Of a stretch of DNA of 14,355 nucleotides, positions 193-13,661 are shown in pieces. Below the pieces are notes generated by a model, which was not told the DNA's origin, searched no databases, and saw only the letters and a program-made list of their open reading frames with translations. This stretch comes from a virus (lineage: Duplodnaviria > Heunggongvirae > Uroviricota > Caudoviricetes). Location of the stretch: the IMG/VR virus record IMGVR_UViG_2675903289_000001. One strand, 5' to 3'. The translations under genes and the position numbers were made by a program. Each line of letters starts with the position of its first letter. Position 1 is the stretch's first letter.

Positions 193-2836
193 CGTCCACC
201 TCCGGAGAACAGGCCACCATCACGCATCTGTGTCTGAATTTCATCACGGGCACCCTTGCGGGCCATGTCATACACGGCCTTCATCATCTGTGGACCTGGC
301 AGACCATTCGTACCGTCGTTCTGAATCACCACGTGATTGTTCTGATTAAAATTAATGCCTTCAGCCCGCCGCATCTGCGCCGGACTTCCGGCACCGCCCA
401 CATAACCACCTTCCGCATAGCCGCGCATCAGCCGGTAGAGATTCCCCACGCCAATCCGGCTGGTTGCCTCCTTCGTGAAGACNNNNNNNNNNNNNNNNNN
501 NNNNNNNNNNNNNNNNNNNNNNNNNNNNNNNNNNNNNNNNNNNNNNNNNNNNNNNNNNNNNNNNNNNNNNNNNNNNNNNNNNNNNNNNNNNNNNNNNNNN
601 NNNNNNNNNNNNNNNNNNNNNNNNNNNNNNNNNNNNNNNNNNNNNNNNNNNNNNNNNNNNNNNNNNNNNNNNNNNNNNNNNNNNNNNNNNNNNNNNNNNN
701 NNNNNNNNNNNNNNNNNNNNNNNNNNNNNNNNNNNNNNNNNNNNNNNNNNNNNNNNNNNNNNNNNNNNNNNNNNNNNNNNNNNNNNNNNNNNNNNNNNNN
801 NNNNNNNNNNNNNNNNNNNNNNNNNNNNNNNNNNNNNNNNNNNNNNNNNNNNNNNNNNNNNNNNNNNNNNNNNNNNNNNNNNNNNNNNNNNNNNNNNNNN
901 NNNNNNNNNNNNNNNNNNNNNNNNNNNNNNNGGTCTTNNNNNNNNNNNNNNNNNNNNNNNNNNNNNNNNNNNNNNNNNNNNNNNNNNNNNNNNNNNNNNN
1001 NNNNNNNNNNNNNNNNNNNNNNNNNNNNNNNNNNNNNNNNNNNNNNNNNNNNNNNNNNNNNNNNNNNNNNGCTGCCTGCCGGTCAGTCAGCCCCCGGTTT
1101 TTCGCATCAATGGCTGCCCGTTTTGCCCGTTGCTGCTGTGCGAATTTATCCGCCTGCTGCGCCAGCGCATTCAGGTGCTCCTGATACGTAACCTTGTCAC
1201 CAAGTGCAGCCAGCTGGCGTTTGTACTCCAGCGTCTCGTCTTTATGCGCCAGCAGGGATTTCTCCTGTGCGGACAGCTGGCGACGTTGTGCCGCCTCCTC
1301 CAGTACCGCGAACTGACTTTCTGCCTTCCACAAATCCCGGCGCTGCTGGCTGATTTTCTCATTCGCTCCGGCATGCTTCTCCAGCGTCCGGAGTTCTGCC
1401 TGAAGCGTCAGCAGGGCCGCATGAGCACTGTCTTCCTGACGATCGCCCGCATACACCTTCACGCCGGACTGTTTCGGCTTTTTCAGCGTCGCTTCATAAT
1501 CCTTTTTCGCCGCCGCCATCAGCGTGTTGTAATCTGCCTGCAGGATTTTTCCGTCTTTCAGTGCCTTGTTCAGTTCTTCCTGACGGGCGGTATATTTCTC
1601 CAGCGGCGTCTGCAGCCGTTCGTAAGCCTTCTGCGCCTCTTCGGTATATTTCAGCCGTGACGCTTCGGTATCGCTCTGCTGCTGCGCATTTTTGTCCTGT
1701 TGACGCTGTTGATCTACCCTCTTTTGGGCTGCATCCCGCTCCAGGCGTTTTTTTTCACGATCATCCCAGTAACGCGCCCGTGCTTCATCGTTAACGAAAT
1801 AATCATCCTTGCGCAGATTCCAGATGTCGTCTGCTTTCTTAAACGCAGCCTCTGCCTTAATCAGCATCTCCTGCGCGGTATCAGGACGACCAATATCCAG
1901 CACCGCATCCCACATGGATTTGAATGCACGTGCAGTCCTGTCTGCCCAGGTCTCCAGCGTGCCCATGTTCTCTTTCAGGCGGCGGGTCTGGTCATCAAAC
2001 CCTTTCGTTGCGGCCTCGTTCGCCGCCTGCAATGCCCCGGCTTCATCGCCGGAACGCTGCAACTGAGCAACATACGCAATCTGCTCCGCCGTCACGTTAT
2101 GGAACTGGCGTGCCATCGCCGTCAGCCCCGACGTCGGGTCTGTGGTCAGCTTCCCGAAGGCTTCAGCGACCTTGTCCACCTCCACGCCGGATGCATAGGA
2201 GAAACGCGCCACACTCTGGCTGATGGACGCAATCTGAGCCTCACCGCTTACCCCCGCCTTAACCAGTGCGCTGAGTGACTCGCTGGTCTGGTTAAACGTC
2301 AGCCCTGCCGCCTGCCCGGCTCTGGACAGGACCAGCATACGATCTGCCGTCAGTCCCGCCTGATTACCGGAAAGGACCAGCGTTTTGTTGAAATCGGACA
2401 GGGTTGAGTTGCCCTGATACCAGGCATACGCCAGCGCACCGGTCGCCACCGCCAGCGAGGTGGCCCCCACCATCGGCAGGGTGATCGCGCCGGCAAGCCC
2501 CCTGAACATGGGGATCATCCCGCCGAAGGAGTCCTTAACCTGACCACCCTGTTGCAGCAGGATCAGCCAGGGATTCTGCCCCCCTGCAAGCTGCGTGGCC
2601 ACGTCGGTGAACTGTGCAGGCAGCATACGCATGGCGGCTTTATACTGCCCGACGGAAATCCCCGCTTTCTGTGCAGCCAGCGCCTGTCGGCTCAGCGACT
2701 GTTCAACGACTGCCGCTGTTTTTTTCGCATCACTTTCCGTACCGGAAAAATGACGCCTGACTCTGGCCATCTGCTCGTCAAATCTGGCCGCATCCAGACT
2801 CAAATCAACGACCAGATCGCCTACCGGTTCAGCCAT
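189..2836 (-). CDS. H: Tail tape measure protein (lambda gpH-like), interrupted by two N-runs so the N- and C-terminal parts appear in different frames
   Basis: ORF track 428..2836 (802 aa with X) begins MAEPVGDLVVDLSLDAARFDEQ..., and ORF 189..449 ends ...DEIQTQMRDGGLFSGGGR; these match the gpH N- and C-termini. Long Ala/Gln/Lys-rich coiled-coil-like middle. ATG at 2834-2836. Confidence 0.9.
483..931. other. Run of N (masked or assembly gap) inside H
   Basis: Contiguous n characters in the sequence. Confidence 0.99.
938..1070. other. Run of N (masked or assembly gap) inside H, separated from the previous run by a 6-nt island ggtctt at 932-937
   Basis: Contiguous n characters in the sequence. 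Confidence 0.99.
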
Positions 2837-4289: not shown

Positions 4290-4697
4290 NNNNNNNNNNN
4301 NNNNNNNNNNNNNNNNNNNNNNNNNNNNNNNNNNNNNNNNNNNNNNNNNNNNNNNNNNNNNNNNNNNNNNNNNNNNNNNNNNNNNNNNNNNNNNNNNNNN
4401 NNNNNNNNNNNNNNNNNNNNNNNNNNNNNNNNNNNNNNNNNNNNNNNNNNNNNNNNNNNNNNNNNNNNNNNNNNNNNNNNNNNNNNNNNNNNNNNNNNNN
4501 NNNNNNNNNNNNNNNNNNNNNNNNNNNNNNNNNNNNNNNNNNNNNNNNNNNNNNNNNNNNNNNNNNNNNNNNNNNNNNNNNNNNNNNNNNNNNNNNNNNN
4601 NNNNNNNNNNNNNNNNNNNNNNNNNNNNNNNNNNNNNNNNNNNNNNNNNNNNNNNNNNNNNNNNNNNNNNNNNNNNNNNNNNNNNNNNNNNNNNNNN
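4290..4697. other. Run of N (masked or assembly gap) covering the V 5' end, the U-V junction and the U 3' end
   Basis: Contiguous n characters in the sequence. Confidence 0.99.
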
Positions 4698-4900
4698 GCC
4701 AGGTATCGCTGTCCAGCTCTTCGCCCGTGTATTCAGCGCCGGTGAGATAAACGGCAATTGCCGGAAAATCTTCCTCATCAAAAACAGCGGGGCGACCATC
4801 AAAAAGCGTCGCCCCGGTGTCATGCTTNNNNNNNNNNNNNNNNNNNNNNNNNNNNCTCCAGTGCATCCAGTACGGCTGCACGGAGTTCAGTATGTTTCAT
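4698..4900 (-). CDS. U: Tail terminator protein U (lambda gpU-like), fragmentary: N-terminus 4856-4900 and body 4698-4827 are split by a 28-N run, and the C-terminus lies in the 4290-4697 gap
   Basis: Manual translation from ATG at 4898-4900 gives MKHTELRAAVLDALE. After the N-run the track ORF 4273..4881 reads KHDTGATLFDGRPAVFDEEDFPAIAVYLTGAEYTGEELDSDTW. ATGA overlap with the Z stop at 4897. Confidence 0.8.
4828..4855. other. Run of 28 N inside U (not a multiple of 3, so it breaks the frame)
   Basis: Contiguous n characters in the sequence. Confidence 0.99.
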
Positions 4901-8110: not shown

Positions 8111-9026
8111 TCGCCCTCCTGAGAGACGGGATTTACGTGCATCCAGTGCATCACGCATGACGGTGATCGCATCGGTACTGTTAACAAGTTCATCAGCCAG
8201 TCCGGCATCAATGGCCTCCTGACCGCTGTACACTGCAGCCTCGGTATCCAGCACAGCCTGCACGGACAGGCCGGTATATGCCGACACCTTCTGTGCAAAC
8301 ATCCGGCGGGTTGCATCCATCCGGGACTGCAATGTTTCCCGGACATCATCCGGTAGATGGCTGTAGGGGTTGCCATCCACCTTATGGCTGCCGCTGTAAA
8401 TCAGCGTGATTTCCACGCCCTGTTTCTCCAGTGCAGCGCCGTAATTACTGTGAGCCATCATGACGCCGATGGAGCCTGTCCGGGCGGTCTGCGTGACCAG
8501 ACGCCGGGAGGCGGCACTGGCAAGCAGCTGACCTGCGCTGCAGTTCATGTCATTGGCCAGCGCCCATACCGGCTTTATGTCACGCACACGGGCGATGATG
8601 TCAGCGCAGTCAAATGCTCCCGCCACCATTCCGCCCGGTGTGTCCATATCGAGCAGAATGCCGTCCACCATCGGGTCGCTGGCAGCCTGTTGCAGACGGG
8701 CGATAATGCCGTTGTAACCGGTCATCCCCGAGTACGGCTGCAGCGCCCGCGTCCGGCTGACCAGCGTGCCGGACACCGGCAGCACGGCGATGCCGTTCAT
8801 TACCTGATAACTGCGGGCCTGTCGTGGTCCGTCATCATCACCGGATAACGCCAGCGCCGCGGGTGCCTCTCCGGCAGTCAGGCTGTCGCCGGATACTGCA
8901 TCCGTCAGGCAGCTGATCCCAAGCTGGCCTGCAAGCGCACAAAAGAAAACCCGCGCATAGGCGGGTTCAAGCATCNNNNNNNNNNNNNNNNNNNNNNNAA
9001 AAGCCATGCTGGCAATATGCGGGAGA

Positions 9027-9046: not shown

Positions 9047-12727
<3,681 letters not shown>

Positions 12728-12753
<26 letters not shown>

Positions 12754-13273
12754 TCAGCAACCCCGGTATCAGTTCATCCAGCGCGGCTGCTTTGTTCATG
12801 GCTTTGATGATATCCCGTTTCAGGAAATCAACATGTCGGTTTTCCAGTTCCGGAAAACGCCGCTGCACCGACAGGGGGATCCCGTCGAGAATACTGGCAA
12901 TTTCACCTGCGATCCGCGACAGCACGAAAGTACAGAATGCGGTTTCCACCACTTCAGCGGAGTCTCTGGCATTTTTCAGCTCCTGTGCGTCGGCCTGCGC
13001 ACGCGTAAGTCGATGGCGTTCGTACTCAATAGTCCCTGGCTGGAGATCTGTCTCGCTGGCCTGCCGCAGTTCTTCAACTTCCCGGCGCAGCTTTTCGTTC
13101 TCAATTTCAGCATCCCTTTCGGCATACCATCTTATAACGGCGGCAGAGTCATAAAGCACCTCATTACCCTTGCCACCGCCTCGCAGAACGGGCATTCCCT
13201 GTTCCTGCCAGTTCTGAATGGTACGGATACTCGCACCGAAAATGTCAGCCAGCTGCTTTTTGTTGACTTCCAT
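12728..13273 (-). CDS. Nu1: Terminase small subunit Nu1 (lambda gpNu1-like), 181 aa
   Basis: ORF track 12728..13273, MEVNKKQLADIFGASIRTIQNWQEQGMPVLRGGGKGNEVLYDSAAVIRWYAERD...; N-terminal winged-HTH region and 26-nt overlap with the A start. Confidence 0.96.
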
Positions 13274-13294: not shown

Positions 13295-13413
13295 CAGAGA
13301 AAGGAAACGACAGAGGCCAAAAAGCCCGTTTTCAGCACCTGTCGTTTCCTTTCTTTTCAGGGGGTGTTTTAAATAAAAACATTAGGTTACGGCGAAGAAG
13401 AACGGAAACGCCT
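13295..13413. promoter_or_regulatory. cosB: three Nu1-binding R elements (R1 ~13295-13313, R2 ~13339-13353 in inverted orientation, R3 ~13401-13413) with an AT-rich IHF-type spacer between R2 and R3
   Basis: Shared core ggaaacg/cgtttcc seen at 13303-13309 (+), 13343-13349 (inverted) and 13404-13410 (+). Position between the Nu1 start and cosN matches lambda cosB organisation. Confidence 0.65.
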
Positions 13414-13450
13414 TAAACCGGAAAATTGTCATAAATAGCGAAAACCCGCG

Positions 13451-13462
13451 CGCCTTCCGCCC
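13451..13462. other. cosN core (12-bp cohesive-end segment) - variant sequence
   Basis: Plus strand cgccttccgccc (GGGCGGAAGGCG in packaging orientation), flanked by lambda-like sequence on both sides; lambda has GGGCGGCGACCT here as I recall. Confidence 0.6.
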
Positions 13463-13484
13463 CGTAACCTGTCGGATCGCCGGA

Positions 13485-13491
13485 AAGGACC
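13485..13491. other. cosQ-like heptamer (aggaccc, i.e. GGGTCCT in packaging orientation)
   Basis: Sequence and spacing (about 23 bp from the cosN core, on the side away from Nu1) match my recollection of lambda cosQ. Confidence 0.5.
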
Positions 13492-13661
13492 CGCAAAATG
13501 ATAATAATTATCATCTACATGTCACAACGTGCATCTACGCCATCAAACCACGTCAAATAATCAATTATGACGCAGGTATCGTATTAATTGATCTGCATCA
13601 ACTTAACGTAAAAACAACTTCAGACAATACAAATCAGCGACACTGAATACAGGGCAACCTC

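What the first reader, a model, noticed from the sequence alone, without database searches (positions are those of the whole stretch)
13440..13475. cosN core differs from the canonical lambda cohesive end while cosQ and cosB are conserved
The 12 bp at 13451-13462 read GGGCGGAAGGCG in packaging orientation, against GGGCGGCGACCT for lambda as I recall it. That is five substitutions packed into six adjacent positions, in a region where the flanks (CGCGGGTTTTCGC on the Nu1 side, CGTAACCTGTCGGATC on the other) are almost unchanged. A clustered change confined to one half of the sticky end would alter the cohesive-end sequence itself and possibly terminase nicking or end annealing. It could equally be a consensus or assembly error.
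Basis: partly seen in the sequence, partly recalled or inferred. Interest (0 to 1): 0.5.

Follow-up and report, generated by a model that had tools for sequence, protein, structure and literature searches.

The report
Natural alternative lambda-type cohesive end allele
The odd sticky-end sequence in this lambda-like prophage is real, but it is a recurrent natural allele lying in the half of the cutting site that published work shows to be tolerant of change, so it is ordinary and is neither an error nor a new mechanism.

Summary
On the minus strand, window 13451-13462 reads GGGCGGAAGGCG where lambda, DE3, 2H10 and Turner read GGGCGGCGACCT. That is five changes, at cohesive-end bp 7, 8, 9, 10 and 12. 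cosQ, the CG dinucleotides at both nick sites, cosN bp 1-6 and the cosB sites R3, R2 and R1 are intact.

It is not an assembly error. The same 12-mer occurs at 169 places in 158 of 5426 complete E. coli genomes, against 8154 canonical places. It also occurs in 23 PLSDB plasmids of about 46 kb, in 78 IMG/VR contigs, and in GenBank phages PhiR46_1 and YDC107_1.

It sits next to three cosB types and two TerL classes. Four full-length TerL proteins are identical between variant and canonical loci, so no terminase co-adaptation is needed. The window's own TerL is 99.7% identical to ones beside canonical cosN.

Feiss et al. 2015 report that bp 7-12 vary naturally (N15, phiD326, Gifsy-1) and that mutations there have little effect, because TerS bound at R3 positions TerL for the bottom-strand nick.

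Self-annealing stability is unchanged, but annealing to lambda ends is halved. This is a new allele of a known kind, and interest is low.

The parts
13486..13492 (-). cosQ heptamer GGGTCCT, at -30 to -24 from the top-strand nick
   Evidence: Located. It is identical to lambda in alignment A1 and is present in nearly all 33 left-flank classes that carry the variant 12-mer. PMC4669245 says the 7-bp cosQ is highly conserved. That this heptamer is cosQ rests on my own knowledge of lambda coordinates.
13449..13464 (-). cosN, 16 bp: CG | GGGCGGAAGGCG | CG, with the inferred nick sites flanked by the conserved CG dinucleotides
   Evidence: The definition of cosN as 12 bp plus 2 flanking bp on each side is from PMC9026076. 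8 of 16 bp are rotationally symmetric, against 10 of 16 in lambda. Nick positions are inferred by homology and were not measured.
13451..13456 (-). [quoted passage not shown] Five substitutions; bp 11 C is retained.
   Evidence: All five changes are co-inherited in 10 variant sequences compared with 120 canonical ones.
13457..13462 (-). [quoted passage not shown]
   Evidence: The left half is reported to be under selection (PMC4669245).
13398..13413 (-). cosB R3 (cos bp 50-65, AGGCGTTTCCGTTCTT), the TerS site that anchors TerL for the bottom-strand nick
   Evidence: It is identical to lambda. The R3 extent and role are from PMC9026076 and PMC4669245.
13339..13349 (-). Core of cosB R2 (inverted R repeat, GGAAACGACAG), cos bp 114-124
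   Evidence: It is conserved with lambda. The assignment as R2 comes from its being the inverted copy of the R1 core and from the published R3-I1-R2-R1 order.
13303..13313 (-). Core of cosB R1 (CTGTCGTTTCC), cos bp 150-160
   Evidence: It is conserved with lambda.
12728..13273 (-). Nu1 (TerS), 181 aa, with a lambda-type N-terminal DNA-binding domain
   Evidence: ORF, translation, and tblastn 92.8% identity to the Nu1 of strain 582.
10828..12753 (-). A (TerL), 641 aa, the endonuclease that nicks cosN
   Evidence: ORF. It is 99.7% identical (2 of 641 differences) to TerL proteins encoded beside canonical cosN.

Best explanation
This is a working lambda-type cos site (cosQ, cosN, cosB with R3, I1, R2 and R1) that carries a second, naturally circulating cosN allele, GGGCGGAAGGCG. 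It works as lambda's does. TerS (Nu1) binds R3 and the other R sites. This places TerL (gpA) so that it nicks the bottom strand between bp 12 and 13 largely regardless of the bp 7-12 sequence. A second TerL nicks the top strand 5' of G1, using the conserved left half. The result is a pair of 12-nt 5' overhangs, 5'-GGGCGGAAGGCG and 5'-CGCCTTCCGCCC. These are perfectly complementary to each other and as stable as lambda's, but they anneal poorly to lambda-type ends. In this window the allele arrived as part of a roughly 200-bp cos haplotype patch (bp 7 to about +200) by recombination. It did not arise as five new mutations in this lineage. What is shown: the sequence, its recurrence, its independence from TerL and cosB type, the patch structure and the annealing energies. 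What is inferred: that the site is cut, and where.
For: Recurrence. A variant-specific 47-mer megablast cannot seed on canonical sites, because their longest shared runs are 19 and 22 nt and the word size is 28. It finds 169 places in 158 of 5426 E. coli genomes. The matched canonical query finds 8154 places in 4294 genomes. Other hits are 23 PLSDB plasmids in E. coli, E. fergusonii, E. albertii and Shigella sonnei, 78 IMG/VR contigs, GenBank phages PhiR46_1 (host field ECOR13) and YDC107_1 (Ravinvirus), and Escherichia sp. E1V33.

Spot checks of fetched loci all show the exact 12-mer.

Context diversity. There are 33 different cosQ-side flanks and three cosB types: lambda R3, a second phage type, and a PICI type. 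Two TerL classes are represented, at >=95% and <80% identity to the window's.

No co-adaptation. Four full-length TerL ORFs are identical between variant and canonical loci, and no residue is exclusive to variant carriers.

Patch structure. Against L049, L036 and L213, the window has 0-1 mismatches per 100 bp on both sides but 9-10 in bp 1-100 and 3-5 in bp 101-200. The allele is linked to C at bp 71 and C at bp 97.

Literature. bp 7-12 variation is common in lambda-like phages, right-half mutations have minimal phenotype, C11G has none, and TerL-lambda cuts cosN-N15 and cosN-lambda equally well (PMC4669245). The N15 end is verified as GGGCGGCGTCCG.

All conserved features are present: the CG flanks, cosQ, the left half and R3. 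Self-duplex energy is -18.6 against -19.0 kcal/mol. The structural genes from Nu1 to H are otherwise intact outside the masked N runs.
Against: No virion end has been sequenced for any carrier of this allele, and no paper in the searchable library mentions the 12-mer. Cutting and the nick positions therefore rest on homology. Only 2 of 50,697 phage records carry it, so most carriers are prophages or plasmids of untested viability. I found no publication for PhiR46_1. The literature examples change only 2-3 of bp 7-12, and none changes five. The allele shows no cloud of intermediates, which fits awkwardly with the published view that bp 7-12 are unconstrained.
Confidence: 0.85

Rival explanations
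1. This is a consensus or assembly error in this one sequence, and the true site is canonical.
For: The window does contain five masked or undetermined N runs totalling 1041 bases, so the record is not pristine.
Against: The identical 12-mer appears in hundreds of independent assemblies from different laboratories, hosts and countries, with differing flanks.
Confidence: 0.01
2. This is a decayed, non-functional cos in defective prophages. The right half has drifted because it is no longer used.
For: Most carriers are prophages of unknown inducibility, and very few isolated phages carry the allele.
Against: Drift would give scattered variants, not one exact 12-mer shared across 33 flank classes, three cosB types and two TerL classes. 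Carriers include autonomous phage-plasmids of about 46 kb (16 of 36 plasmid-borne sites in the E. coli set) and a GenBank phage with a propagation host. The window's packaging and head genes are intact and 97-100% identical to relatives. cosQ, the CG flanks, the left half and R3 are all preserved.
Confidence: 0.05
3. The allele is functional but needs a co-adapted terminase with changed nuclease specificity.
For: In the first small sample, gpA I466 was present in 6 of 6 variant carriers and 10 of 46 canonical ones.
Against: With 41 variant and 44 canonical loci, the I466 association fades to p=0.02 over 268 variable columns. Four TerL proteins are identical across the two alleles. The strongest associations (N9D, S21A) are at the cos-proximal end of the gene, as expected from linkage. 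The window's TerL differs by 2 residues from ones beside canonical cosN, and one of the two (R404) is absent from most other variant carriers.
Confidence: 0.03
4. The site is functional but is cut in a different register. The new run GGCGCGCGGG repeats the CG nick context at bp 11-12, 13-14 and 15-16, so the bottom-strand nick might shift by 2 nt and give a 10- or 14-nt overhang.
For: The sequence itself. TerL nuclease has low intrinsic specificity and mis-nicks when its anchoring is disturbed (PMC4669245; PMC9026076).
Against: The cosN-to-R3 spacing that sets the nick position is unchanged, with R3 at bp 50-65. N15 also has CG at bp 11-12 (GGGCGGCGTCCG), and its record annotates a 12-nt end.
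Confidence: 0.06

Closest known systems
Bacteriophage lambda cos (cosQ-cosN-cosB; GGGCGGCGACCT)
   Same: The cosQ heptamer, the spacing, the CG flanks, cosN bp 1-6 and bp 11, the R3, R2 and R1 sequences, and the Nu1 and A genes are the same (TerL about 99% identical to lambda-class proteins).
   Different: bp 7, 8, 9, 10 and 12 of the cohesive end differ. Rotational symmetry is 8 of 16 bp instead of 10 of 16. The ends anneal to lambda ends at only about half the stability.
N15 and phiD326 cosN (differ from lambda at bp 9 and 12; N15 = GGGCGGCGTCCG)
   Same: It is a natural variant confined to the right half, with G at bp 12 as here. It has been shown experimentally to be cut by TerL-lambda as efficiently as lambda's own cosN (PMC4669245; sequence).
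   Different: N15 has two changes rather than five. bp 9 is T in N15 and G here. N15 has a simple cosB and its own TerS specificity, whereas the window has the full lambda-type cosB.
Gifsy-1 cosN (differs at bp 8, 9 and 11) and mEp213/LLS (GGGCGGCGCGCT)
   Same: They are further published right-half variants among lambda-like phages (PMC4669245; PMC12315714).
   Different: The positions and bases differ. None matches AAGGCG, and those phages have diverged head or terminase genes, whereas here the terminase is essentially lambda's.
cos sites of Gram-negative PICIs (EcCICFT073 type)
   Same: cosQ and cosN are lambda-like with an unrelated cosB. Some IMG/VR PICI-type cosB sites carry this same 12-mer, and others carry the related GGGCGTCAGGCG.
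   Different: The window has a phage cosB plus Nu1 and A, not an Rpp gene. The experimentally studied CFT073 PICI and its helper phage 4 have the canonical 12-mer, so they give no direct test of this allele.

Membership tests
[quoted passage not shown] | A 12-bp cohesive-end sequence with significant identity to GGGCGGCGACCT, especially bp 1-6 | tested here: met
   7 of 12 bp are identical, and bp 1-6 and bp 11 are unchanged.
lambda-like cos sites | Conserved 5'-CG-3' dinucleotides flanking both nick positions | tested here: met
   ...TTACG|GGGC... and ...GGCG|CGCGGG. This conservation is stated in PMC4669245.
lambda-like cos sites | The conserved 7-bp cosQ about 30 bp upstream of cosN | tested here: met
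   GGGTCCT at window 13486-13492, at the same distance as in lambda.
lambda-like cos sites | cosB with a TerS site R3 at a fixed distance (bp 50-65), plus I1, R2 and R1 in the complex type | tested here: met
   R3 is identical to lambda at bp 50-65, and the R2 and R1 cores are present. The IHF site I1 was not scored; bp 71, 73 and 78 in that interval differ from lambda.
lambda-like cos sites | Adjacent terS (Nu1) and terL (A) genes of the lambda family | tested here: met
   Nu1 is 181 aa and A is 641 aa, collinear with the strain 582 prophage at 93% and 99% identity.
lambda-like cos sites | Staggered nicks 12 bp apart that give 5' overhangs in virion DNA | not testable with these tools
   This needs virion DNA end sequencing or an in vitro cleavage assay. 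No record or paper gives ends for a carrier of this allele.
Tolerated right-half cosN variants (N15, phiD326 and Gifsy-1 class) | Changes confined to bp 7-12, with the left half and flanks intact | tested here: met
   The changes are at bp 7, 8, 9, 10 and 12 only.
Tolerated right-half cosN variants | Cut by an unmodified lambda-class TerL | tested here: inconclusive
   Identical TerL proteins are encoded beside both alleles. This argues that no adaptation is needed, but cleavage itself has not been observed.

The most novel reading that the evidence does not exclude
E. coli lambda-like phages, phage-plasmids and their PICI satellites maintain two discrete, mutually incompatible cohesive-end types, CGACCT and AAGGCG, with almost no intermediates. 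A chromosome cut between heteroallelic cos sites, for example after recombination between concatemers or from tandem elements, would carry ends with five mismatches. The computed annealing energy is -9.5 kcal/mol, against -15.3 for the lambda/N15 pair, which already costs about four-fold in yield. The alleles would then act as a partial reproductive barrier or compatibility marker. That would explain both the all-or-none inheritance of the five changes and the enrichment of the variant on phage-plasmids (16 of 36 plasmid-borne sites, against 2% overall).
Probability: 0.1. Interest if true: 0.45.

Novelty: new member of a known kind. Interest (0 to 1): 0.15.

Why it matters
It matters little for mechanism. 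The finding extends a published rule, that cosN bp 7-12 tolerate change because TerS anchoring sets the bottom-strand nick, to a more extreme natural allele with five of six positions changed.

It has some practical value. Tools that annotate prophages or predict termini by looking for GGGCGGCGACCT will miss about 2% of lambda-type cos sites in E. coli and nearly half of those on phage-plasmids. DNA from such phages will not anneal or ligate to lambda arms.

The absence of intermediates between the two alleles is a small population-genetic puzzle.

Tried and rejected
1. Assembly error. Rejected because of the recurrence.

2. TerL co-adaptation. An early hint at I466 dissolved with 85 loci, and identical proteins occur across both alleles.

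3. Experimental support from PICIs. I hoped that the EcCICFT073 cos sites, which are packaged by lambda and phi80, carried an AGGCG-type right half. Fetching CFT073 showed that both PICI sites and phage 4 are canonical, so there is no direct test there.

4. Quasi-palindrome or templated origin. GGAAGG is nearly complementary to the CCTTTCC next to cosQ, but the match needs a bulge, and both alleles fold into comparable hairpins (-13.1 against -11.5 kcal/mol). This is unsupported. Inversion of CGACCT does not give AAGGCG. A compensating 4-bp insertion and deletion (GGGC-GGAA-GGCG against GGGC-GGCG-ACCT) is possible but untestable here.

5. Species-representative genome scan with a degenerate pattern. 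Nearly all of the 75 hits were chance matches in unrelated taxa; only Escherichia sp. E1V33 was a real lambda-type site.

6. Literature. The 12-mer is in no paper in a phage context. No paper was found for the PhiR phage series. The most relevant survey, Vahanian et al. 2017, Virology 509:140, is not held, so I cannot say whether it already lists this allele.

7. The source of the window was not found. The best 161-bp match among complete E. coli genomes is 98.1%.

Full report
OBSERVATION

Read in packaging orientation (the minus strand), the window around 13440-13475 is ...GGGTCCTTTCCGGCGATCCGACAGGTTACG|GGGCGGAAGGCG|CGCGGGTTTTCGCTATTTATGA.... The 12-mer occupies 13451-13462 and is unique in the window.

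I aligned it with lambda, DE3 (whose record annotates the cos site), 2H10, Turner and PhiR70_1. The flanks are nearly invariant. The differences from GGGCGGCGACCT fall at cohesive-end bp 7, 8, 9, 10 and 12.

THE SURROUNDINGS

This is a complete lambda-type cos.
- The cosQ heptamer GGGTCCT is at 13486-13492.
- CG dinucleotides flank both nick positions.
- R3 is at cos bp 50-65 (13398-13413) and is identical to lambda.
- The R2 and R1 cores are present.
- Nu1 starts at bp 190.

Nu1, A, W, B, C, D, E, FI, FII, Z, G and T are collinear with the prophage of E. coli strain 582 and 93-100% identical to it. The apparent breaks in U, V and H are runs of N in the window, not mutations.

NOT AN ERROR

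I used a 47-nt query centred on the variant. It cannot seed on canonical sites, because their longest shared exact runs are 19 and 22 nt and megablast needs a 28-nt word.
- The variant query finds 169 places in 158 of 5426 complete E. coli genomes, 16 of them on plasmids.
- The matched canonical query finds 8154 places in 4294 genomes, 20 of them on plasmids.

The allele is therefore about 2% of lambda-type cosN sites overall, but 16 of 36 plasmid-borne ones.

It also occurs elsewhere:
- 23 PLSDB plasmids, mostly about 46 kb and non-mobilizable, from E. coli, E. fergusonii, E. albertii and Shigella sonnei;
- 78 IMG/VR contigs;
- Escherichia sp. E1V33;
- two GenBank phage records, PhiR46_1 (host field ECOR13) and YDC107_1, which is classified as Ravinvirus, the N15-like group.

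Every fetched example shows the exact 12-mer.

INDEPENDENCE FROM CONTEXT

Among 88 variant-bearing sequences I found 33 different cosQ-side flanks and three cosB types:
- lambda R3, which is the majority;
- a second phage type, in 18 sequences;
- a PICI type, in 4 sequences.

TerL beside the variant is either lambda-class (>=95% identical to the window's) or a divergent class (<80%). The canonical allele occurs with the same classes.

The window's TerL differs at only 2 of 641 residues from TerLs beside canonical cosN. In 41 variant and 44 canonical lambda-class loci, four full-length TerL ORFs are identical across the two alleles, and no residue is exclusive to either. The only notable associations are N9D and S21A at the cos-proximal end of the gene, as expected from linkage. 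Terminase co-adaptation is therefore not required.

HOW IT GOT HERE

I compared the window with L049, L036 and L213, which carry the canonical allele. It has 0-1 mismatches per 100 bp for hundreds of bases on both sides, but 9-10 mismatches in bp 1-100 and 3-5 in bp 101-200.

The five cosN changes are always inherited together, in 10 variant sequences against 120 canonical ones. They are linked to C at bp 71 and C at bp 97, which are minority states among canonical sites.

So the allele sits in a roughly 200-bp cos haplotype that moves by recombination. The left boundary of the patch lies at cosN itself.

Single-step alleles exist but are rare: C7A in PhiR70_1, T12G in L054 and G6A in L082.

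WHAT IS KNOWN

Feiss et al. 2015 (PMC4669245) make the following statements.
- In lambda-like phages, differences in bp 7-12 are common: N15 and phiD326 differ at bp 9 and 12, and Gifsy-1 at bp 8, 9 and 11.
- Many right-half mutations have minimal phenotype. C11G has none, whereas the symmetric G2C costs about ten-fold.
- TerL-lambda uses cosN-lambda and cosN-N15 equally well.
- cosQ, the left half and the CG flanks are the conserved parts.

I verified the N15 end as GGGCGGCGTCCG. LLS and mEp213 are reported as GGGCGGCGCGCT (PMC12315714).

A dedicated survey exists (Vahanian et al. 2017, Virology 509:140), but it is not held. The 12-mer found here appears in no paper in a phage context.

MECHANISM

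What is shown: all elements that the literature identifies as constrained are intact, and the changed positions are exactly the tolerant ones.

What is inferred: TerS at R3 positions TerL to nick between bp 12 and 13. A second TerL nicks 5' of G1. The virion ends are 5'-GGGCGGAAGGCG and 5'-CGCCTTCCGCCC.

Computed duplex stability for self-annealing is -18.6 kcal/mol, against -19.0 for lambda. Annealing of a variant end to a lambda end is only -9.5, weaker than the lambda/N15 pair at -15.3. That pair costs about four-fold in yield experimentally.

Rotational symmetry falls from 10 of 16 bp to 8 of 16. The G2:C11 pair and the flanking CG pairs are retained.

RESIDUAL DOUBTS

Cleavage at this allele has never been observed. 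Isolated phages carrying it are few.

The all-or-none pattern of five changes, with both alleles conserved across divergent terminases, does not look like neutral drift of unconstrained positions.

The new GCGCGCG run could in principle allow a shifted nick. However, the R3 spacing is unchanged, and N15 also has CG at bp 11-12 with an annotated 12-nt end.

VERDICT

The feature is real. It is a natural, widespread allele of a well-understood site, and it falls within a published pattern of variation. It is a new member of a known kind, and interest is low.

Noticed in passing
window 483-931, 938-1070, 4290-4697, 4828-4855, 8976-8998: There are five runs of N totalling 1041 bases. They interrupt the tail genes H, V and U and the C gene. 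They mimic frameshifts and split ORFs in the ORF list, but they are masked or undetermined sequence, not mutations.
   Followed up: yes
L095 5456-5467 and L120 (IMG/VR); about 475 E. coli genomes by megablast: This is a PICI-like element: an AlpA-family regulator and a lambda-E-like capsid gene lie upstream, and a 183-aa TerS/Rpp-like gene lies downstream. It carries a third cosN allele, GGGCGTCAGGCG, which shares the AGGCG right end with the window but also changes bp 6 in the supposedly constrained left half. Four IMG/VR loci with the same PICI-type cosB carry GGGCGGAAGGCG instead.
   Followed up: partly
E. coli genome and PLSDB searches; L132, L134, L135: The variant allele is strongly enriched on non-mobilizable plasmids of about 46 kb, which are N15-like phage-plasmids. 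It accounts for 16 of 36 plasmid-borne lambda-type cosN sites in complete E. coli genomes, against about 2% of all sites. These plasmids encode a lambda-type Nu1 (WP_000453567.1) identical to that of chromosomal prophages.
   Followed up: partly
L001 (PhiR70_1), L054, L082: Rare single-step cosN alleles exist: GGGCGGAGACCT (C7A), GGGCGGCGACCG (T12G, together with the variant-linked C at bp 71, so it looks like a recombinant or repair mosaic within cosN) and GGGCGACGACCT (G6A, in the left half).
   Followed up: no
window 10828-12753 (-), gpA residue 404: The window's TerL has R404 where almost all other lambda-class TerLs examined have L. R404 is shared by only 3 of 41 variant-bearing loci and by none of the 44 canonical ones.
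   Followed up: no
window 12728-13273 (-), about 400-700 bp from cosN: Nu1 is mosaic. Compared with strain 582 and the phage-plasmids, mismatches are concentrated in the central part of the gene (23, 11 and 6 per 100 bp), while the N-terminal DNA-binding region and the gene A overlap are nearly identical.
   Followed up: no
L212 (E. coli OkiPb01701), position -3 relative to cosN: This prophage's cosQ-side arm is 99.9% identical to the window's. It has canonical cosN but TTGCG instead of TTACG immediately 5' of the top-strand nick.
   Followed up: no
PLSDB hits H241-H242: Perfect canonical lambda cos 47-mers appear in plasmid records assigned to Rahnella, Bacillus thuringiensis, Alicyclobacillus, Paenibacillus and Stenotrophomonas. 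These are most likely lambda or cosmid contamination, or lambda DNA assembled as a plasmid.
   Followed up: no
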